64,000 nucleotides of DNA from a virus. Taxonomy: Duplodnaviria; Caudoviricetes. A program made the translations under genes and the position numbers. The DNA is taken from the IMG/VR virus record IMGVR_UViG_3300037067_012889, positions 192,001-256,000 of that record; one strand, given 5' to 3'. Every line of letters starts with the position of its first letter. Within the stretch, counting starts at the first letter, position 1. Shown piece by piece: positions 15,517-26,003 of this stretch. The notes under the pieces were generated by a model, which was not told the origin of the DNA, made no database searches, and worked only from the letters and a program-made list of their open reading frames with translations.

Positions 15517-18500
15517 TTAAGCAGTCTTTTGTGTCGCTTGTACTAGAGATAATTTACAGCATCCGGCGAGCATTGGTGTTTGTGATGTTGGGCGTTTGGT
15601 AATCTGACCCTCTTGGAAGAAGTCGATCCGCAATCCTTCCGATTCAGCGAATCCTTTCAACGATTGCAGCCATTTCTTATATACACCCTTTTCAATCGGC
15701 TGCCAAGAAGTATGTGTGTAGCCCTCCATAAAATTCCACGAGAATAATACGTATCCTGATTTCTTGGCAGCAGCGATGGCAAGATAACAAAGTTCCTGCC
15801 AATATTCTGTTCTCGATTCAACCATACCCATGGTTGCATCATAGCTAATGACACGTGGATTCTTCCATCGATTCCACAGCTTGTGAATGGTCAAGAATTC
15901 ACGATCAGAATGGGCACAAGCTCCTTTTGGTGCTTTATCGATTGCATCTTTATCAACATTGTGGTAAGTGTTTGGACCGAGTTCAACACCGGCGTCGACA
16001 AGATGCTTATGCTCATACCATTCTTTACCGCCAAGAGTCCAAAATTCACAATCAGAAAAAGAGGTAAGGCCGTAATATCTCAGAGCCTTGACTAGGAACT
16101 CACGATACTCATTACGGCCAGCATATTTACCGCGTTTAGCTTTCTTATATGATCCATGGATAAACCAATCAGGCCGTAGTGAACGAATCTGCTTATCAAA
16201 TTCAGGATCGTAACACCTACTATTCTTATTAGTGTAATCACTAAGCCTGCTTGCGTAACGCGCTTCGTCAGCGTCATCGCAATGCTGCTTAGGTTTGCAT
16301 TCATCTTTACCCGCCAACCGCAGCAATATGCTCTTCATAACCATTGCTGTGTCCTCGAACCAATCGGGACGTAGTGAGCGAATCTGCTTATCAAATTCAG
16401 GATCGTAACAACAACTATTCTTATTAGTATATCTAAATATTGCCCTGCCAAATTTATTACTTGGTTTTGGCTCCCATCTATTAGCTAGTCTCAACAATTC
16501 AGCCTTCCTAATCCTTGCTGTGTTCTCAAACCAGTCAGGACGTAGAGAACGAATCTGCTTATCAAATTCAGGATCATAAGATCCGCTGTTCTTGTTGATA
16601 TAGGCACTCAATTTGCCAGCAAGCAATCTTTCCTCACGATTTATTGAACTGCCCTTTGGTCTCCGTTCTTCTTTTCTCCTTGCCAATCCTAACAGTTTGA
16701 TTTTAGTGGCTGCTGCTGTATCCTCAAACCAATCTGGACGCAAGGCACGAATTTGCCTGTCGAATTTATAATCATAACTCGTAGACTTATTAGTATAGCT
16801 ATACAAAACCCGGCCTAATTGTATTTCGTCGGCATCATCGCTTGTGGTTCGTGGCCTGGTAGCCCCTTTTTCAGCCAGCATAACAAGATGTTTTTTCTTT
16901 TCAACAGAAGTTCTTTCAAACCAATCTGGCCGCAACTGTCGAATCTTACCATCGAAGACCGAATCATAATTACAAACATTTGCTTTACAGGTGTAACCTT
17001 GTAACGCAGAAGAAAGCTTAGAATCGGTAGTACGTGTTGGTCTTGGTGCCCCGCTAGCAGCAAGAGATAATAACACTTCCTTCTTTTCGGCTACCACATT
17101 AAACCAGTCTGGCCGCAGTTGGTGGATTTCAATATCAAAAGCATGATCATAAGTTCCGCGATTTTTATTCAAGTAGCAGTTTAATGCTGCTGATAACTGT
17201 CTCTCTCGTAAATTTTTAGAGTTACCACGCGGCCTTCTTTGGCCATGTTTTGCAAGCGCCAACAATTCTGATTTCTTTTGGGCTGTTTTTTCAAACCAAT
17301 CTGGTCGCAGAGTTCTGATAGATCGATCAAAAGCAGAATCATAGCATGAACTCCTCTTGCTTGTATAGCTTGATAATGATCGACCCAAGCGCCTATTATT
17401 TTCATCTTTAGTGTGCATCGTCGGTCGTTTTGAGTTTGGTACTCTCGCTAACGCTATTAAATCGTCTTTGTTCTTTTGAACCGAGTCTTCAAACCAATCT
17501 GATCTAAGTCTTCGTATTTCAGTATCGAAAATCACATCATAATTCTTTTTCTTATTAGTGTATTCGCCGAGCCTACCAGCAAGTCGTTTCTCTTCATGGT
17601 CTACAGCATCTCTATTTGGTCTTTTTCCTCCGCTCTTCGCTAGTTCTATCAACTTCCTTTTGTTCTCTCTCGCCGAATTCGCATTAAAGCGAATCAAGAT
17701 CCTTTCAATCTCGTCAAAATCATCTAGCCCGTTGATGATTCCAAAGTAATCGGTGATGCCGATTACTTTCAGTTTACTGATAGCTTCTTTGACCTCTGGA
17801 TCATTCATGAACTCTTTGAACGATAGCTTGCTAAGCCGTTGGTCGCGTTTGCGGATGATTTCTTCTAACGCTACACGATCGTTTTTGTCGATGACGTCAT
17901 ATTGCATCAACAAGCTTATAGCTAAAATTGGAGTTATGGCAACGCCGTGCTTGGCACATTGCTTACAGAGCATTTCAATCAACTCATTAGCAGACGCACC
18001 GGCGGCGGACTCTTGCAGAATTCGCTGTAAAATTTCGTTGTTCTGCAGCGAATTAATTTGCAACCTGAATTCGTCTCTTTCCTTATTTATTGCAACTCGA
18101 CGACGCTGCGGCAAAGTCAACATAAATGTATCGGTGAAGTCAAGGCCGCTACAGATCGCCTTAATCCTGATTGCGATTTGCAGGTTGGCATTCTTGACCA
18201 CATCCTGGTCTTCATCATCGAGGCTTACCTCAAAGATAACGACTCTTGAAAGATTTGGCGACAGATGCTTCGGGTTCTTCTTGTGGCGTAACGCACGCCC
18301 AACACACCGTTGGATAAATCGTTGCAGAGAACTGGTGAGACGCGGATTAAATGTTTGAGCACATTCAACCCAGTCCATACCTTCGTCAAATAACTTGATA
18401 GCTATGACAACATCATAATCTCTCGGAGAATCTATAATAGCATCAAGCTTAGCTTTGCGCAGATGCTTGTGGTTTGAAATAAGTGTCTTACCGTCATCAG

Positions 18501-19461
18501 ACCCAAAGTTGAGAATCCGAACACCTTTACATTTACTGAGCAGGAGCTTCTGCAAGTCGAGTGCTTGCTTGGCACCATCAACGTACATGATAGTCGGCAA
18601 AGGATGTTTTTTGTATTCATCGATATATGCCTTCAATAATTCGGGATAATCCATGGCCCCCATGAGGCTCGGTTTATTTGATATATCTTCAGTCTCAGCG
18701 AGACGGTCGAAGTCAGATTGATTAACAGCACGATAGAATCGAAGGAATACTCCGAAGTCGGGGCAACATCCATCATGATAATGCTCCTTCAAAAGCCGTC
18801 GAAATCGGCTAAACTCCTCAGATGTTGGCTGGCCACCATCGCTACGAAAGTCTGTGGCTGTGAATGCGTGAACTTCGGAGCATCTATCAATACATTTCCT
18901 CAGGATTGAACCTAATAGATTCTCGTCCTTCATATCGCTGTGATGAACTTCGTCGACGAGCAAAACCACATCTGACATATCGATGGTTTCATCATCCAAA
19001 GCCAAATCAAATGCCTTATAACTAGAAACGCGAACCGTGCCACCTGGACCATTCAGAAATCGTTTCATCGACGCAGATTTCTGTATCTGGCTCTCTTTAA
19101 CACTTTCATACGACAAGGTATATGTATTTATTATCTTATTCTTGTCTTTTTCAACAGCACACCAATCGCCATCCTTGGTATATTTAGTGAAATTGTGATT
19201 GATTCCCAGTTGCGGTGTGATGACGATAACTTTCTTATGCCGTCTGACAAAAGCAGCATAAGCAAGCATCACGTTGGTTTTGCCGCTGCCGGTTGGAGAT
19301 TCAACCAGCGTAAGACGATTCTGCTTCATATGGCCGATCATGCCACATTGATATCGCCGCAGAATTATAGGTGATTGTCCCATCTTCTCAGCGAGAACGA
19401 TGGATTTGGGTGCTACTTTACCAGCAAGGACGCCGTTTCGAATAGTAATAGTTGAATTCAT
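15517..19461 (-). CDS. SF2 (DEAD/ResIII-like) helicase with 8 LRPDWF repeats and a C-terminal domain
   Basis: Walker A SPTGSGKT, DEVH, TAT, FDEGMD, QRCVGRALR; 8 repeats of ~60-65 aa. Confidence 0.88.
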   Translation of the reverse strand: MNSTITIRNGVLAGKVAPKSIVLAEKMGQSPIILRRYQCGMIGHMKQNRLTLVESPTGSGKTNVMLAYAAFVRRHKKVIVITPQLGINHNFTKYTKDGDWCAVEKDKNKIINTYTLSYESVKESQIQKSASMKRFLNGPGGTVRVSSYKAFDLALDDETIDMSDVVLLVDEVHHSDMKDENLLGSILRKCIDRCSEVHAFTATDFRSDGGQPTSEEFSRFRRLLKEHYHDGCCPDFGVFLRFYRAVNQSDFDRLAETEDISNKPSLMGAMDYPELLKAYIDEYKKHPLPTIMYVDGAKQALDLQKLLLSKCKGVRILNFGSDDGKTLISNHKHLRKAKLDAIIDSPRDYDVVIAIKLFDEGMDWVECAQTFNPRLTSSLQRFIQRCVGRALRHKKNPKHLSPNLSRVVIFEVSLDDEDQDVVKNANLQIAIRIKAICSGLDFTDTFMLTLPQRRRVAINKERDEFRLQINSLQNNEILQRILQESAAGASANELIEMLCKQCAKHGVAITPILAISLLMQYDVIDKNDRVALEEIIRKRDQRLSKLSFKEFMNDPEVKEAISKLKVIGITDYFGIINGLDDFDEIERILIRFNANSARENKRKLIELAKSGGKRPNRDAVDHEEKRLAGRLGEYTNKKKNYDVIFDTEIRRLRSDWFEDSVQKNKDDLIALARVPNSKRPTMHTKDENNRRLGRSLSSYTSKRSSCYDSAFDRSIRTLRPDWFEKTAQKKSELLALAKHGQRRPRGNSKNLRERQLSAALNCYLNKNRGTYDHAFDIEIHQLRPDWFNVVAEKKEVLLSLAASGAPRPTRTTDSKLSSALQGYTCKANVCNYDSVFDGKIRQLRPDWFERTSVEKKKHLVMLAEKGATRPRTTSDDADEIQLGRVLYSYTNKSTSYDYKFDRQIRALRPDWFEDTAAATKIKLLGLARRKEERRPKGSSINREERLLAGKLSAYINKNSGSYDPEFDKQIRSLRPDWFENTARIRKAELLRLANRWEPKPSNKFGRAIFRYTNKNSCCYDPEFDKQIRSLRPDWFEDTAMVMKSILLRLAGKDECKPKQHCDDADEARYASRLSDYTNKNSRCYDPEFDKQIRSLRPDWFIHGSYKKAKRGKYAGRNEYREFLVKALRYYGLTSFSDCEFWTLGGKEWYEHKHLVDAGVELGPNTYHNVDKDAIDKAPKGACAHSDREFLTIHKLWNRWKNPRVISYDATMGMVESRTEYWQELCYLAIAAAKKSGYVLFSWNFMEGYTHTSWQPIEKGVYKKWLQSLKGFAESEGLRIDFFQEGQITKRPTSQTPMLAGCCKLSLVQATQKTA

Positions 19462-19466
19462 AGTTT

Positions 19467-19495
19467 GTTATAGCACGAAAACAGGGAATTATTAA
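19467..19495 (-). promoter_or_regulatory. phage promoter, probably giving a leaderless helicase mRNA
   Basis: TTAATA-N17-TATAAC ending 5 nt before ATG 19461. Confidence 0.65.
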
Positions 19496-19510
19496 CTCAG
19501 ATATTCTAGT

Positions 19511-21001
19511 TCAGTCATTCTTAAACCAATCTGGACGCAGAGCACGAATCTTCGCATCAAAATCTGCGTCGTACGTTTTGCAGCTTTTGTTTGTGTATCT
19601 GCGCAACGTATAATATAAAGCATGCATTGCGGTCGGTTTCGCTTCTCCGTTTTTAGCTATCTCTAGAAGACTTTGTTTCTTTATAATTGTATTATCAAAC
19701 CAATCAGGCCGCAGCTTAGATATCTCCGCATGAAATTCCGGGTCATAACAATTACGGCCTGATTTCTTGCAAGTGTATCTAGTAAGTGCTGCACCCAATT
19801 TATCAGTCGGTCTTATGGCTCCGCTTTTGGCTAATTTTGTCAGCTTTCGTTTGGTTTGGCGTATCGTCCCACATGCTACCCTAAACCAATCGGGGCGAAG
19901 GTTATATATTTCTGCAACAAACTCAGAGTCACTGTGGGTTTTTAAATCTTCAGCTAAACGCCCAGCCAAACTCCGCATATGTGGGTCTTTTGACCTGACA
20001 TGTGGCCTGTCTTTCCCATTTTTAGCCATTTCTAGCAATTCTGATCTTCTAACTTCAGGCAGCAGGCTTTTTGGAAACCAATCTGGACGTAGCTCTTTTA
20101 TTGCTGCAGAAAATTCTGGGTCAAAATAATAGCCTTTGTGGATGAAGTTGTTTAACCATCTTGAAAGTGAAAATTCGCCTTCAAATCTTTCACTCCTGTT
20201 CTTACATAGCTCACGCGGCCTATCGGCACCATCAGTAGCAAGCTTTAGTAATTGCTGCTTGTAAATGTTGATACGATCAAACCACCCTGGACGCATTTCG
20301 CGAATCTTAGCGTTGAATTCTGGATCGAAAACGCCGCTATTTTCATTAGTATATCTCTGCAATGCCGCCCCCAATGCAATCTTGCAGTTCGGCTTCTCTT
20401 CTTGCTCTAGTTGTGCTAATTCAAACAACAATCGCTTATTTCTGTCTGATCGATGCTCCAGCCAATCGGGATGTAAAGCACGCATTTGGGCATCAAACTC
20501 AGCATCATAATCATTACTATTTTTATTAGTATAGTTATATAGAGCGGATGCCAATCTCAATTCATCGGACGCATTTTTGCTGGATGAAGGACGTCTCGAC
20601 ATCGATAACAACGTGCTTTTGATTTCCTCTCCCGAAGTTTTAGGTTTGGTAGGAAACCAGTCTGGTCTCAAAGCACGAATTTCATCATCGAATTCAAGTT
20701 GGCAATATCTGCTGCTGCGGTTTGAAGTATATCTTCCCAACGCCTGGCCAAGTCTTGTCTTCTTTGTTGGTTTAGGTGCTCCACTTTTAGCTATTTGTAT
20801 CAACAATCTAGTATTTTCCGCGACAGAATCATAGAACCAGTCGGGTTGCAATCTACGAATCTCTGCGTCAAATTCAGCATCATAAGACAAACCAGGAGTA
20901 GTATATCTTCGCAATGCCGCCGCAAGCTCATACTCCTCAGATCCTCTTCTTGAGAGAGTAAGACGAGGCTTTCTGACCGGCAGATATTCAGATTCAGCCA
21001 T
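19511..21001 (-). CDS. protein composed of 8 LRPDWF repeats
   Basis: 8 copies of K..LL..A..G..RP....L...L..YT......YD.EF...IR.LRPDWF. Confidence 0.85.
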   Translation of the reverse strand: MAESEYLPVRKPRLTLSRRGSEEYELAAALRRYTTPGLSYDAEFDAEIRRLQPDWFYDSVAENTRLLIQIAKSGAPKPTKKTRLGQALGRYTSNRSSRYCQLEFDDEIRALRPDWFPTKPKTSGEEIKSTLLSMSRRPSSSKNASDELRLASALYNYTNKNSNDYDAEFDAQMRALHPDWLEHRSDRNKRLLFELAQLEQEEKPNCKIALGAALQRYTNENSGVFDPEFNAKIREMRPGWFDRINIYKQQLLKLATDGADRPRELCKNRSERFEGEFSLSRWLNNFIHKGYYFDPEFSAAIKELRPDWFPKSLLPEVRRSELLEMAKNGKDRPHVRSKDPHMRSLAGRLAEDLKTHSDSEFVAEIYNLRPDWFRVACGTIRQTKRKLTKLAKSGAIRPTDKLGAALTRYTCKKSGRNCYDPEFHAEISKLRPDWFDNTIIKKQSLLEIAKNGEAKPTAMHALYYTLRRYTNKSCKTYDADFDAKIRALRPDWFKND

Positions 21002-21654
21002 TAGTTAAACCAATCTGGGCGTAGTGCACGAATCTTCGCATCGAAATCTGCGTCATATGTCTTGCGTGATTTGTTCGTATAATTGATCAAAGCACGACCA
21101 AGACGCTGCTCTTCCATCGCAGCACCATAAATCTCCTCAGCATTAATTGCTTCTTCGAGACCATTTGTCCGTATTGGATTCTTTTGATACTTAAGCCACG
21201 CATTGCTATTTGGACGTGGCGCACCGCTTTCAGCCAACTTTAACAACTCTTCTTTGGTCATTGCGGTGCTTGGTAAAACTGCGGGCAATAACGCACCATC
21301 GGCATCAAACCAATCTGGACGAAGAGTACGAAGTTCTTTGTGAAAATCGGCATCGTAACTATTGGTACAACAATAGCGTTTCAATGCCAGCCCTATGCCT
21401 TCTTTCTTACTTGGCCTCTCAGCACCGCTTTCAGCCAGCTCTAGTAGCCGCCGCTTCTTTTGATCCGGTGTCTCTGGTCTTTCTGCCCCACTTTCGGCCA
21501 ATTCTAACAACCGCCGTTTGTTCTCGATATCGGGTTTGCTGGTTTCGATTGGCTCGACCGTGACCTTTAAGCCACTCTTTTCAAGCTTCCTGAGCAAATC
21601 CTTCTGATAGCTAAATAATTCGAACTTTTTCTCGGCCACGTTGATATCTCCCAT
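21001..21654 (-). CDS. LRPDWF-repeat protein (2 full repeats plus a duplicated half-repeat)
   Basis: KRRLLELAESGAERP occurs twice; start set at MGDIN because the track start lies inside the promoter palindrome. Confidence 0.75.
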   Translation of the reverse strand: MGDINVAEKKFELFSYQKDLLRKLEKSGLKVTVEPIETSKPDIENKRRLLELAESGAERPETPDQKKRRLLELAESGAERPSKKEGIGLALKRYCCTNSYDADFHKELRTLRPDWFDADGALLPAVLPSTAMTKEELLKLAESGAPRPNSNAWLKYQKNPIRTNGLEEAINAEEIYGAAMEEQRLGRALINYTNKSRKTYDADFDAKIRALRPDWFN

Positions 21655-21695
21655 ATAATAAATGCACCTGGAACGTTCCAGGTGCATTTATTATA
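21654..21695. repeat. perfect 42-bp palindrome
   Basis: tataataaatgcacctggaac|gttccaggtgcatttattata. Confidence 0.95.
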
Positions 21696-21718
21696 GCACA
21701 ACGCCATAAGTTTGTCAA
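21690..21718 (-). promoter_or_regulatory. consensus sigma70 promoter
   Basis: TTGACA-N17-TATAAT with extended TG. Confidence 0.8.
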
Positions 21719-23143: not shown

Positions 23144-24535
23144 TTACTGGTTGCTCGATTCCATCGTCGCAACAAACTTCAAGAAGTGTTCAGACCAACC
23201 AGAGATTTCAGCAGTCCAAATACCCTTGTAATTGACACCGTGCGACTCCGAAGAGACATCGATGACATAGTTTCTCTTACCATGCGGCTTCGGTTGTCCT
23301 GAATTAGGATGATCGCAATCTTGCGAATCACTGAAAATCATCAATCGGTCCGGAGCTTCTTCCTCACCTCTGATGAAATTACAGACCTGTCTAGTAAAGA
23401 TGCCGCCACTACCAAGTTCGCTACTTGCATATAGGATCTTATCAGCTAACGCAAAACCACGAAGAGCTTCGATTTTCTTTGTTGCGTGTATGCGTCTGGT
23501 ATCGTCACCAGATGTAGCATAAATGGAAACATGATCGCAACACTCCGCCGCCAAAACTGCCATCGAAGCAGCCGCATCCATCCGAGTGAATTCAGATTTG
23601 CCTGATAACTTACTGGCCATAGAACCAGAAACGTCGATAACCAGAGTTGAAAAGCCATTCAATCGTGGCCACGTCTTCGCACACCGATACATCAGATCTT
23701 CGATTTCTCTGGTCCAATTAGACGCATACTTGCGAGCCTTTAGAAAATCGATCGGTAGCAGCATATCCACTTTACAGTTTGCGAAAGCTTGGGCCATCGC
23801 ATCGCGAGACACTCCCGCTTCCTGCATATTTCGTAGATTCTTTAGGAATGCATAGGCCGGAAGCTTTTTGCTCTCGATCAACCGTTCCCAAACCGCTCGC
23901 TTTTCATCGACGTCCTTTGCCGCCGACATACCGACTTCCCACGTGTCGGGAGTCTTAAGCTCATTGGCGATAAGCCGCTTATACAAATCGTGTCGATCAC
24001 CAGTCGGCTTCGCGTGACACAGGAATAAGACATCTCGCAACTTCACTTCCTTGTCCAGCTGGTTATACTTGGCCAGCTGATATTCGTCGAACTTATCAAA
24101 AGCCTTTGCCAAGCCTCTTTTCACAGCGGCCGGAAGTGATTTTTTGTCGTTGTTGTCGGCCCAGTACATAGCGACAAATTCTGCCATCTCGTCAGGACGA
24201 TTACATATCTTCGCTAATGTCTCGGCCACATCTGGCATGTGATTACGAACCATTTCGCGGACAATCATGAACGGCACATGCCGCAACTTTTGTTCGTATC
24301 GTGCTTCCACAGCCAGACTACCAGCATTTTGTACCTGTGGCACCAGTGCTTTGATTTGGTTTACGACCTCTTGACCGTCACAATAGGCATTCTTCTCCCA
24401 TAATAGACACGTCATCACAAGACGGCGTAAAGTCGCTTCTACATCCTGCTTTGCCGCATGCGGACCATAACCGCCAGCCAGTCTATTGTCATCGTAGACA
24501 TGCGACTTCTTCGTTTTCTTATTGGTGGTCGCCAT
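23144..24535 (-). CDS. rsr: TROVE-domain Ro60/Rsr RNA-binding protein with vWA domain
   Basis: FDEYQLAKY, KLRDVLFLCHAKP, TPDTWEV.MS, LKNLRNM, vWA VIDVSGSM and FSDSQ motifs. Confidence 0.93.
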   Translation of the reverse strand: MATTNKKTKKSHVYDDNRLAGGYGPHAAKQDVEATLRRLVMTCLLWEKNAYCDGQEVVNQIKALVPQVQNAGSLAVEARYEQKLRHVPFMIVREMVRNHMPDVAETLAKICNRPDEMAEFVAMYWADNNDKKSLPAAVKRGLAKAFDKFDEYQLAKYNQLDKEVKLRDVLFLCHAKPTGDRHDLYKRLIANELKTPDTWEVGMSAAKDVDEKRAVWERLIESKKLPAYAFLKNLRNMQEAGVSRDAMAQAFANCKVDMLLPIDFLKARKYASNWTREIEDLMYRCAKTWPRLNGFSTLVIDVSGSMASKLSGKSEFTRMDAAASMAVLAAECCDHVSIYATSGDDTRRIHATKKIEALRGFALADKILYASSELGSGGIFTRQVCNFIRGEEEAPDRLMIFSDSQDCDHPNSGQPKPHGKRNYVIDVSSESHGVNYKGIWTAEISGWSEHFLKFVATMESSNQ

Positions 24536-25547: not shown

Positions 25548-26003
25548 TTAGTGCAAATCACTGCGTATCTTCATGAGTATCTTGCCCAACATGTTCTGCC
25601 CCTCTCCCTCACACATTCCCCAATAATGATCGCACCAGTTGTTGCCCTCTATTAGTTCAGAATCGCCAGTTGCTAAAAGCTTGTCTCTCAGATCTGGTAT
25701 GTTGAACTTCTGGCGGATTAGATCTTCCATTATCACAAGTTTTATTGATTCCCAATCAGGCCGCAGTGATACACAACTCCCTGTCCTCTTCGCCTGTCCG
25801 GGTGTCATTCGTGCTATCTCTTCCCTTTCAGACACGTTCATCGTCTTCGCGGCCTGATATGCATTCTCAACGGAGAGATATACTATTCCCTCCATCTCTA
25901 CCCTGCAGGGATAAAAATTCGATAGGAACCGATTCTCTTCAGAAAAACTCGTTATGGCTTTCATTGAGATTGTCCTGAGTATTCTAAAAATGTCAAATCT
26001 CAC
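25548..26003 (-). CDS. NADAR (YbiA-like) family protein (probable start MKAITSF)
   Basis: FLSNFYP, SVENAYQAAK, LRPDWE, LLATGD.ELIEGN.W.D.YWG and GQNMLGKILM motifs. Confidence 0.93.
   Translation of the reverse strand: MRFDIFRILRTISMKAITSFSEENRFLSNFYPCRVEMEGIVYLSVENAYQAAKTMNVSEREEIARMTPGQAKRTGSCVSLRPDWESIKLVIMEDLIRQKFNIPDLRDKLLATGDSELIEGNNWCDHYWGMCEGEGQNMLGKILMKIRSDLH

What the first reader, a model, noticed from the sequence alone, without database searches (positions are those of the whole stretch)
15517..21654. 18 copies of a ~60-aa LRPDWF repeat over three adjacent proteins, one fused to an SF2 helicase
Seen: consensus K..LL.LA..G..RP-(variable)-E..L...L..YT.K.S..YD..FD..IR.LRPDWF, 8 times in the helicase, 8 in 19511-21001 and 2 in 21001-21654. 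The scaffold is fixed and the basic segments are variable. The helicase also ends in a ~200-aa alpha/beta domain, perhaps a degenerate Rossmann/methyltransferase fold. Known: helicase-associated (HA) repeats have a similar size and context. Inference: a modular nucleic-acid-binding repeat array, with stand-alone repeat proteins as specificity subunits or decoys.
Basis: partly seen in the sequence, partly recalled or inferred. Interest (0 to 1): 0.7.

Follow-up and report, generated by a model that had tools for sequence, protein, structure and literature searches.

The report
Phage helicase with HA-like repeat arrays
A 364-kb phage has a three-gene operon in which a DNA/RNA motor protein and two partner proteins carry 18 copies of a small, basic, fast-evolving three-helix module related to the poorly studied "helicase-associated" domain, and the motor ends in a methyltransferase-like domain. 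The module is common in large phages, but what it binds has never been tested.

Summary
Three co-oriented genes (15517-21687, minus strand) hold 17 complete LRPDWF repeats of 57-68 aa, one first repeat that lacks helix 1, and one extra lone helix 1. There are no other copies in the 363,885-bp phage.

Each repeat folds as three helices (AF2 pLDDT 90). The arrays are strongly basic. The family is large: 1,284 cluster representatives, mostly stand-alone arrays or SF2-helicase fusions from large phages.

Pfam HA (PF03457) does not detect the window's repeats, and profile-profile comparison is not significant. However, relatives carry LRPDWF and canonical HA repeats side by side in one array, so I read it as a divergent HA-like module and not as a proven member.

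Between orthologous helicases the repeats are 42% identical, against 77-79% for the flanking domains.

The operon has one of only two perfect sigma-70 promoters in the genome.

Best reading: multivalent nucleic-acid-binding (probably DNA) tails for an early-expressed translocase/methyltransferase. Binding, substrate and the role of the stand-alone arrays are untested.

The scan had already noted the same module in sister phages. I class it as a new variant of a known kind, of moderate interest.

The parts
21690..21718 (-). Perfect sigma-70-type promoter (TTGACA, 17 nt, TG-n-TATAAT) at the head of the operon
   Evidence: It scores 12 of 12 with an extended -10. It is the only such site in the window and one of two in the 364-kb genome. 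It is conserved in sister phage L001.
21660..21689 (.). 30-bp perfect palindrome directly after the -10 box. It could be an operator, an RNA hairpin, or the terminator of the upstream gene.
   Evidence: It is unique in the window. It is conserved in L001 with a compensatory double change that keeps the symmetry.
21001..21687 (-). Small repeat protein (P0003, 228 aa as ORF; probable GTG start at 21639). It has an N-terminal ~50-aa domain, an orphan helix 1 (21466-21522), one full repeat (21307-21465), and one repeat with a ~40-aa insertion (21007-21264).
   Evidence: The last repeat is nearly identical in L001 and in two L002 paralogues.
19511..21001 (-). Stand-alone array (P0002, 496 aa). It has a conserved leader MxESEYLPV(K/R)(K/R)P, a first repeat without helix 1 (20834-21001), and 7 full repeats (19523-20833). 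pI is 9.4.
17677..19461 (-). SF2 DExH helicase core plus linker (P0001 residues 1-595). Walker A (GSGKT), DEVHH, TAT and QxxGRxxR motifs are all intact.
   Evidence: Pfam ResIII/DEAD/Helicase_C, phrog_16 DNA helicase E 7e-25, and invariant motif residues in alignment A7.
16162..17676 (-). Eight LRPDWF repeats of the helicase (P0001 residues 596-1100). Net charge is +33 and pI 9.7. Units 6-8 share 86-90% nucleotide identity over the helix-3 part.
15517..16161 (-). C-terminal domain of the helicase (P0001 residues 1101-1314) with a class I SAM-dependent methyltransferase fold.

Best explanation
The three genes form one operon of a jumbo phage, probably expressed early. It encodes a DExH SF2 translocase whose C-terminus carries eight small three-helix modules and then a SAM-methyltransferase-fold domain. 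Two separate proteins in the operon are built from the same module.

The module is a divergent, phage-borne relative of the helicase-associated (HA) domain. I infer that each unit is an independently folded, positively charged nucleic-acid-binding bead, and that DNA is more likely than RNA. An array of 5-10 beads on flexible joints would hold the motor and its methyltransferase-like domain on the polymer. The fast-changing face (the loop after the RP motif, one side of helix 2, and the loop before helix 3) would set which sequences or structures are preferred. The stand-alone arrays would bind the same kind of polymer, either beside the helicase or in competition with it.

Shown: the repeats, their fold, their charge, the family's range, the mixed arrays, the accelerated divergence, the methyltransferase fold and the promoter.

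Inferred: binding, the ligand, methyl transfer, and cooperation between the three proteins.
For: - 19 profile hits lie in these three genes only.
- A four-repeat AF2 model has pLDDT 90.3 with three helices per unit, but pTM is only 0.53, meaning confident units with a loosely defined mutual arrangement.
- 783 unique repeats give a fixed hydrophobic/Gly/Pro scaffold. High entropy sits at profile positions 23-33, 36, 39, 40 and 43-48. Positions 21-48 are almost free of acidic residues. Mean net charge is +5 per repeat, and 99% of 179 stand-alone arrays have pI above 8.5, with a median of 9.9.
- The family has 1,284 representatives at E<=1e-3. Of 220 inspected, 168 are stand-alone arrays, about 45 are SF2-helicase fusions and 6 carry the C-terminal domain.
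- Mixed arrays exist. L006:8201-9175 has 2 LRPDWF units followed by 3 canonical HA units (PF03457, 100.8 bits). Helicase L016:133-2964 has 3 LRPDWF units followed by 2 HA units (63.9 bits).
- Relatives P0054, P0051 and P0060 open with a canonical HA half-repeat in the slot of P0002's first unit, which lacks helix 1.
- The HA domain has an NMR structure, 2KTA. The title of its paper says it 'indicates domain binding to DNA' (Mills 2013, cited as reference 64 in PMC12191111).
- Other fusion partners are DNA-directed modules, such as the I-HmuI NUMOD-like domain.
- The helicase motifs are intact.
- The C-terminal domain has a methyltransferase fold with an invariant Gly-Gly loop after strand 1, D70 at the end of strand 2 and D108 on strand 4.
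- Window versus L001 orthologues: helicase 77% identical, repeats 42%, C-terminal domain 79%. dN is 0.14, 0.55 and 0.13 respectively.
- The promoter is a perfect consensus match, one of two in the genome.
Against: - No binding data exist for this subfamily.
- Pfam HA does not hit the window proteins.
- hhalign against 6 or 12 true HA repeats is not significant (E 0.46 and 0.17).
- The top structural neighbours of the C-terminal domain are mostly RNA and small-molecule methyltransferases. It lacks the (D/N/S)PP(Y/F) motif of DNA amino-methyltransferases, which weakens the DNA reading.
- Synonymous sites are saturated, so fast divergence cannot be attributed to positive selection.
Confidence: 0.6

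Rival explanations
1. RNA machine. The repeats bind RNA in the manner of PPR or PUF proteins, the DExH core acts as an RNA helicase or chaperone, and the C-terminal domain methylates RNA (host or phage rRNA, tRNA or mRNA). The stand-alone arrays would be RNA-binding co-factors.
For: The best structural neighbours of the C-terminal domain include many RNA methyltransferases: PH1915/RlmI/RlmO, RlmM, RsmH, TlyA, fibrillarin, FtsJ/MRM2 and Trm enzymes. There is no DPPY-type DNA methyltransferase motif. DExH SF2 enzymes include RNA helicases.
Against: The helicase matches PHROG 16 'DNA helicase' and ResIII. Fusion partners of the repeat elsewhere are DNA-binding modules. The only experimental hint for the HA fold is DNA binding. 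Structural matches to the methyltransferase fold are generic: spermine synthase is tied at the top, and DNA methyltransferases appear among the viral hits.
Confidence: 0.2
2. Protein-binding arrays. The three-helix units are a scaffold for protein-protein contacts, for example binding or decoying host defence or replication proteins. Rapid change would reflect an arms race with protein targets.
For: Repeat regions diverge about four times faster than the flanking domains. The number of array genes per phage varies widely: 13, 19 and 50 repeats in three related phages. Stand-alone arrays share conserved leaders that look like docking pieces.
Against: A uniformly high positive charge and an acid-free variable surface are typical of polyanion binders. 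The constant link to helicases and DNA-binding modules points the same way.
Confidence: 0.1
3. Non-specific DNA-coating or condensing proteins. The stand-alone arrays would act like histone-type proteins, or like internal head proteins packaged with the genome. The helicase-borne copies would simply provide grip.
For: Arrays have very basic pI, are repetitive and are often multi-copy. A conserved N-terminal leader could be a targeting signal.
Against: A perfect host-type promoter suggests early rather than late expression. High variability at defined helix positions is not expected of a purely electrostatic coat.
Confidence: 0.07

Closest known systems
SF2 helicases with C-terminal helicase-associated (HA, Pfam PF03457) repeats; NMR structure 2KTA of Bacteroides vulgatus BVU_0683(627-691)
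   Same: A ResIII/DEAD helicase is followed by tandem ~60-65-aa three-helix units. Stand-alone arrays also exist. LRPDWF and canonical HA units sit in the same arrays in relatives. NCBI names one relative 'helicase associated domain-containing protein'.
   Different: The sequence signature differs: K..LL.(L/M)A..G..RP ... LG.AL..YT ... YD.EFD..IR.LRPDWF, against W...F..f..f...hG ... LG.W...QR ... L...Q...L...GF.W in canonical HA. PF03457 does not detect the window's units, and hhalign is not significant. The family is phage-borne and fast-evolving, and here it is followed by a methyltransferase-fold domain.
Single-chain motor-methyltransferase enzymes (Type ISP restriction-modification, e.g. 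LlaGI/LlaBIII).
   Same: A helicase-like ATPase and a methyltransferase-fold domain sit in one polypeptide, with a DNA-reading part between or after them.
   Different: There is no nuclease domain and no target-recognition domain. The methyltransferase-like domain lacks the (D/N)PP(Y/F) motif. The reading part is a repeat array. The system is encoded by a phage, not by a defence island. Not tested here beyond the domain searches.
Modular repeat readers of nucleic acid (TALE, PUF, PPR). Comparison recalled from general knowledge.
   Same: Tandem helical units have a fixed scaffold and a few hypervariable surface positions (36, 39, 40 and 43 lie on one face of helix 2).
   Different: Units are three-helix bundles of ~60 aa on flexible joints (pTM 0.53). 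The variable positions use a broad alphabet (3.4-3.9 bits) with no small code. No sequence or convincing fold match was found.
Class I SAM-dependent methyltransferases such as PH1915/RlmI/RlmO, RlmM, RsmH and TlyA, and the aminopropyltransferase spermine synthase
   Different: Identity is 7-14%. No Pfam, NCBIfam or PDB sequence match exists. There is no K-D-K-E tetrad and no DPPY motif. The substrate is unknown.

Membership tests
Pfam HA (PF03457), helicase-associated domain | Match to the PF03457 model at or above its gathering score (28.4 bits) | tested here: not met
   No hit for P0001-P0003 or for any of the 18 units, and none in the whole phage at E<=10. Some relatives score 20-29 bits, but only on a canonical HA half-repeat at their N-terminus.
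Pfam HA (PF03457), helicase-associated domain | Profile-profile similarity to canonical HA repeats | tested here: not met
   hhalign of A1 against 6 HA repeats gives probability 0.1 and E 0.46. 783 repeats against 12 HA repeats gives E 0.17, with only a 22-column piece aligned in register. The HA alignments were shallow.
Pfam HA (PF03457), helicase-associated domain | Unit of about 60-65 aa with three helices | tested here: met
   The AF2 four-repeat model has pLDDT 90.3 and three helices per unit.
Pfam HA (PF03457), helicase-associated domain | Fold match to the solved HA domain 2KTA | tested here: inconclusive
Pfam HA (PF03457), helicase-associated domain | Tandem copies C-terminal to an SF2 (ResIII/DEAD) helicase, and in one array with other HA units | tested here: met
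   The P0001 architecture shows this. Mixed LRPDWF + HA arrays occur in L006:8201-9175 and L016:133-2964.
Pfam HA (PF03457), helicase-associated domain | Binds DNA | not testable with these tools
   Only indirect support: pI and net charge, and the title of Mills 2013 (the paper itself is not held).
SF2 DExH helicase | Motifs I (GxGKT), II (DExH), III (TAT) and VI (QxxGRxxR) intact | tested here: met
   The sequence of P0001 shows them. G58, G60, K61, D170, E171, H173, H174, T201, A202, Q384, G388, R389 and R392 are invariant in A7. Pfam ResIII, DEAD and Helicase_C match.
Class I SAM-dependent methyltransferase | Seven-strand Rossmann-like methyltransferase fold | tested here: met
Class I SAM-dependent methyltransferase | SAM-binding motifs (Gly-rich loop after strand 1, acidic residue at the end of strand 2) and catalytic competence | tested here: inconclusive
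   Invariant E39-x-W-T-L-G-G, N68-V-D70 and D108 fall at the expected strands of the model. No residue-level superposition or ligand test was possible. No Pfam methyltransferase model matches.
DNA N6-adenine / N4-cytosine methyltransferases | (D/N/S)PP(Y/F/W) motif on strand 4 | tested here: not met
   Strand 4 reads (V/A)I(S/C)(Y/F)D(S/A)T with no PP.
TALE / PUF / PPR-type coded repeat readers | Rigid superhelical array with a small residue code at fixed positions | tested here: inconclusive
   pTM 0.53 despite pLDDT 90. The variable positions have 3.4-3.9 bits of entropy, so no small alphabet is used. There is no fold match.

The most novel reading that the evidence does not exclude
The arrays are sequence-reading devices. 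Each three-helix unit would read a short stretch of DNA or RNA through the hypervariable face of helix 2 and its flanking loops, so that an array addresses the translocase and methyltransferase-like domain to chosen sites. The interchangeable stand-alone arrays, which carry conserved docking leaders, would re-target or block it. This would be a natural, rapidly re-programmable targeting system in jumbo phages, distinct from TALE, PUF, PPR and CRISPR.
Probability: 0.1. Interest if true: 0.85.

Novelty: new variant of a known kind. Interest (0 to 1): 0.5.

Why it matters
HA-type repeats are among the most common helicase appendages with no known function. This phage branch has more than a thousand sequence clusters and is invisible to the Pfam model. 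It evolves about four times faster than the enzymes it is attached to. It is combined with different effector domains: helicase, methyltransferase fold and homing-endonuclease DNA-binding modules.

If the arrays bind nucleic acid with any specificity, they would be a new class of natural modular targeting domains. They would also be a clue to how jumbo phages mark or protect nucleic acid early in infection. If they bind non-specifically, they are simply grip-enhancing tails. Either answer is reachable with simple binding assays.

Tried and rejected
- Sequence searches of the repeat profile against PDB gave only a chance-level hit, Noc (E 5.8).
- Scans of the 18 units against Pfam and of P0002/P0003 against NCBIfam and PADLOC gave nothing useful. 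PADLOC showed only generic helicase similarity to PbeA and Cas3.
- tblastn of P0002 against 50,697 GenBank phages found no match.
- The search for related loci with A1 or P0002 failed: no conserved stretch, or no confirmed locus. A degenerate DNA pattern for three consecutive PDWF motifs worked instead. Three of its 18 loci (L003, L005, L013) were unrelated simple repeats.
Gene neighbourhoods of the metagenomic proteins therefore could not be read directly. Linkage of P0218 to P0008 rests on adjacent NCBI locus tags.
- The paper on the HA NMR structure is not held.
- Foldseek of the four-repeat model against PDB gave no hit at E<=1e-3.
- INT_rpt (PF14882) gave no hit in the genome.
- The third homologue search, on the helicase core, returned only close relatives and said nothing about HA-bearing cousins.
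- Complex prediction was run with the leader part of P0002 as partner against P0003 and the helicase linker. It gave no verdict (score 0.27, mark 0.32, controls not run). This is neither support for nor evidence against docking.
- dN/dS could not be computed because synonymous sites are saturated.
- Idea rejected: that P0003's orphan helix 1 always pairs with the first repeat of a P0002-type array (the one lacking helix 1). Sister phage G459 keeps the orphan helix but has no leader-bearing array.


Full report
**Setting.** The window is bases 192001-256000 of a 363,885-bp viral record that is judged complete. Earlier notes of this scan describe it as a jumbo phage with a nuclease-dead Cas12f system and a Ro60/Y-RNA locus close by.

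**Observation.** Three minus-strand ORFs lie head to tail: 21001-21687 (228 aa, P0003), 19511-21001 (496 aa, P0002) and 15517-19461 (1314 aa, P0001).
- A motif scan finds 2 + 8 + 8 units ending in LRPDWF or near variants, spaced 57-68 aa apart. MAFFT aligns them with F50 and W61 invariant and eight further columns at 90% or more.
- A profile of the 18 units finds 19 stretches in the whole phage, all in these genes, with E from 1e-16 to 1e-28.
P0002's first unit lacks helix 1. P0003 carries an extra lone helix 1 in front of its first full unit.
- P0003 most likely starts at the GTG at 21639, behind GGGAG. The upstream ATG at 21687 lies inside a hairpin.

**The repeat unit.**
- AlphaFold2 on a four-repeat stretch of P0002, with 63 aligned four-repeat stretches from this and related phages, gives pLDDT 90.3 and three helices per unit. 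pTM is only 0.53, so the units are confident and their mutual arrangement is not.
- From 783 unique repeats the family consensus is K8, L11-L12, A15, G18, (R/K)21-P22, L34-G35, L38, Y41-T42, Y49-D50, F53, I57-R58, P62, W64-F65.
- The most variable positions are 23-33 (the loop after RP), 36, 39, 40 and 43 (one face of helix 2), and 44-48.
- Positions 21-48 are nearly free of acidic residues. The mean net charge is +5 per unit, and the median pI of 179 stand-alone arrays is 9.9.
- This pattern is what one expects of a polyanion-binding surface. That is an inference, not a measurement.

**Range of the family.**
- The profile finds 1,284 cluster representatives at E<=1e-3 among 1.84 billion, and 451 at E<=1e-30.
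- Of 220 retrieved proteins, 168 are stand-alone arrays of 3-13 units (mode 5). About 45 are SF2 helicases with the array at the C-terminus, and six carry the C-terminal domain described below.
- Contigs with the repeat are mostly viral, 100-570 kb long. None of 50,697 GenBank phage records has a match.
- Other fusion partners include an I-HmuI NUMOD-like module shared by P0096, P0110 and P0112.

**Is it an HA domain?** Direct tests fail.
- PF03457 finds nothing in the phage at E<=10.
- None of the 18 units hits it.
- hhalign against true HA repeats that I collected from Bacteroidota genomes gives E 0.46 and 0.17.

Indirect evidence is stronger.
- In L006:8201-9175, two LRPDWF units are followed by three canonical HA units (100.8 bits).
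- In the helicase L016:133-2964, three LRPDWF units are followed by two HA units (63.9 bits).
- Several stand-alone arrays begin with a canonical HA half-repeat exactly where P0002 has its unit lacking helix 1.
- One of these is named 'helicase associated domain-containing protein' by NCBI and passes the Pfam cut-off on that piece.

I therefore treat the repeat as an HA-like module, probably a divergent branch, and do not file it as a proven member.

**Helicase.** P0001 residues 26-400 match ResIII, DEAD and Helicase_C, and also PHROG 16 'DNA helicase'. Motifs I, II (DEVHH), III and VI are intact and invariant among 14 relatives. No solved structure is close in sequence.

**C-terminal domain.**
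- Residues 1101-1314 have no Pfam, NCBIfam or PDB sequence match.
- They form a family with stand-alone ~215-aa proteins. The family also includes proteins made of five repeats plus this domain without any helicase.
- One stand-alone copy is the gene next to a repeat array, judged by NCBI locus tags.
- AF2 gives pLDDT 87.3 and pTM 0.85 with a seven-strand alpha/beta fold.
- Invariant residues fall where SAM-binding motifs sit: E39-x-WTLGG after strand 1, N68-V-D70 at the end of strand 2, and D108 on strand 4.
- There is no DPPY-type motif.

Activity and substrate remain open.

**Evolution.**
- The orthologous helicase of a 388-kb sister phage (L001) is 77% identical in the helicase part and 79% in the C-terminal domain, but only 42% in the repeat region. 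That is about the level between any two repeats, and positional correspondence is weak.
- dN is 0.14, 0.55 and 0.13 for the three parts. dS is saturated, so selection cannot be classified.
- Repeat content differs widely. The sister phage has 13 units. This phage has 19 profile hits. A 234-kb relative has 50 units in about ten genes, including two helicase fusions.
- Inside the window, helicase units 6-8 share 86-90% nucleotide identity over the helix-3 part. The last units of P0002 and P0003 share 80% over 86 nt, which points to recent duplication or conversion.
- In contrast, two parts are conserved across paralogues and phages: the last unit of P0003-type proteins, and the leader MxESEYLPV(K/R)(K/R)P plus first unit lacking helix 1 (ending LQPxWF) of P0002-type arrays.

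**Expression signals.**
- A 12-of-12 sigma-70 promoter with an extended -10 lies at 21718-21690. It is followed at once by a 30-bp perfect palindrome.
- Only two such promoters exist in the 364-kb genome.
- Both elements are kept in L001, with a compensatory double change in the palindrome.
- P0003 and P0002 overlap by one base, and P0001 follows after 49 nt. I infer one operon read by host RNA polymerase, probably early in infection.

**Mechanism.** The best-supported picture is a DExH translocase held on nucleic acid by a flexible string of basic three-helix beads, with a methyltransferase-like domain at the end. Free arrays of the same module are made from the same transcript. DNA is favoured by the helicase family, by the DNA-directed fusion partners, and by the single experimental hint for HA. 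RNA remains a serious rival because of the methyltransferase neighbours and the lack of DNA methyltransferase motifs. Protein-binding and DNA-coating roles are less likely but not excluded.

**Docking test.** One complex prediction asked whether the conserved leader of P0002 docks onto P0003 or onto the helicase linker. It gave no verdict.

**Earlier notes.** The scan had already flagged the same module in sister phages. One note's coordinates fit the L001 locus that I analysed. It had also proposed plug-in docking of arrays on helicases in other phages. My data agree on the family and its fast change. They add the methyltransferase-fold domain, the mixed-array link to HA, the family statistics and the promoter.

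**Verdict.** This is a real and statistically solid feature. It is a new variant of a known but uncharacterised kind, the helicase-associated repeats. Interest is moderate, because function remains inferred and the module is widespread.

Noticed in passing
window 21660-21718 (minus strand); L001 3333-3390: A perfect sigma-70 promoter is followed directly by a 30-bp perfect palindrome. It is one of only two perfect promoters in the 364-kb genome. The palindrome is kept in the sister phage through a compensatory double change. It could be an operator, a 5' RNA hairpin, or the terminator of the upstream gene overlapped by the promoter.
   Followed up: partly
window 20834-21001 (P0002 residues 1-56); L002 ORFs at 85, 2422, 3735, 8606 and 9916; P0007, P0008, P0013, P0014, P0021, P0126, P0195: Stand-alone arrays of this clade share a conserved leader MxESEYLPV(K/R)(K/R)P and a first repeat that lacks helix 1 and ends in LQPxWF. 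Helicase P0118 also starts with MSEYLP. Other clades have their own conserved leaders, for example MLKxWQ..LE...GW. These may be docking or capping pieces.
   Followed up: partly
window 21007-21090 and 19521-19606: The last repeats of P0003 and P0002 share 80% nucleotide identity over 86 nt and an identical peptide, KTYDADFDAKIRALRPDWF. The same last repeat is nearly invariant in L001 and in two L002 paralogues, whereas internal repeats are hypervariable.
   Followed up: partly
L002, L007 and L015 (IMGVR_UViG_3300037067_015585, 234 kb): One related phage carries 50 repeat units in about ten consecutive genes. These include two helicase-array-methyltransferase fusions and a 688-aa protein made of five repeats, the methyltransferase-like domain and a further ~150 aa of unknown fold.
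   Followed up: partly
L036 350-1504 (G459, about 175 kb into the sister phage): A 384-aa protein has degenerate LRPDWF-type repeats followed by two helix-turn-helix-like units (weak ANT/KilAC hit). It lies far from the helicase operon.
   Followed up: no
window 13764-14402, 23144-24535 and 25548-26003: The neighbours of the operon include a DUF488 protein, a Ro60/TROVE protein with a VWA domain, and a NADAR-domain protein. No functional link to the repeat operon was found.
   Followed up: no
P0187 (C-terminal 127 aa): A helicase-array relative ends in two copies of a KNKGW..W.DFLG motif. It resembles integrase-repeat-type DNA-binding units and is another effector or DNA-binding module attached to the arrays.
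   Followed up: no
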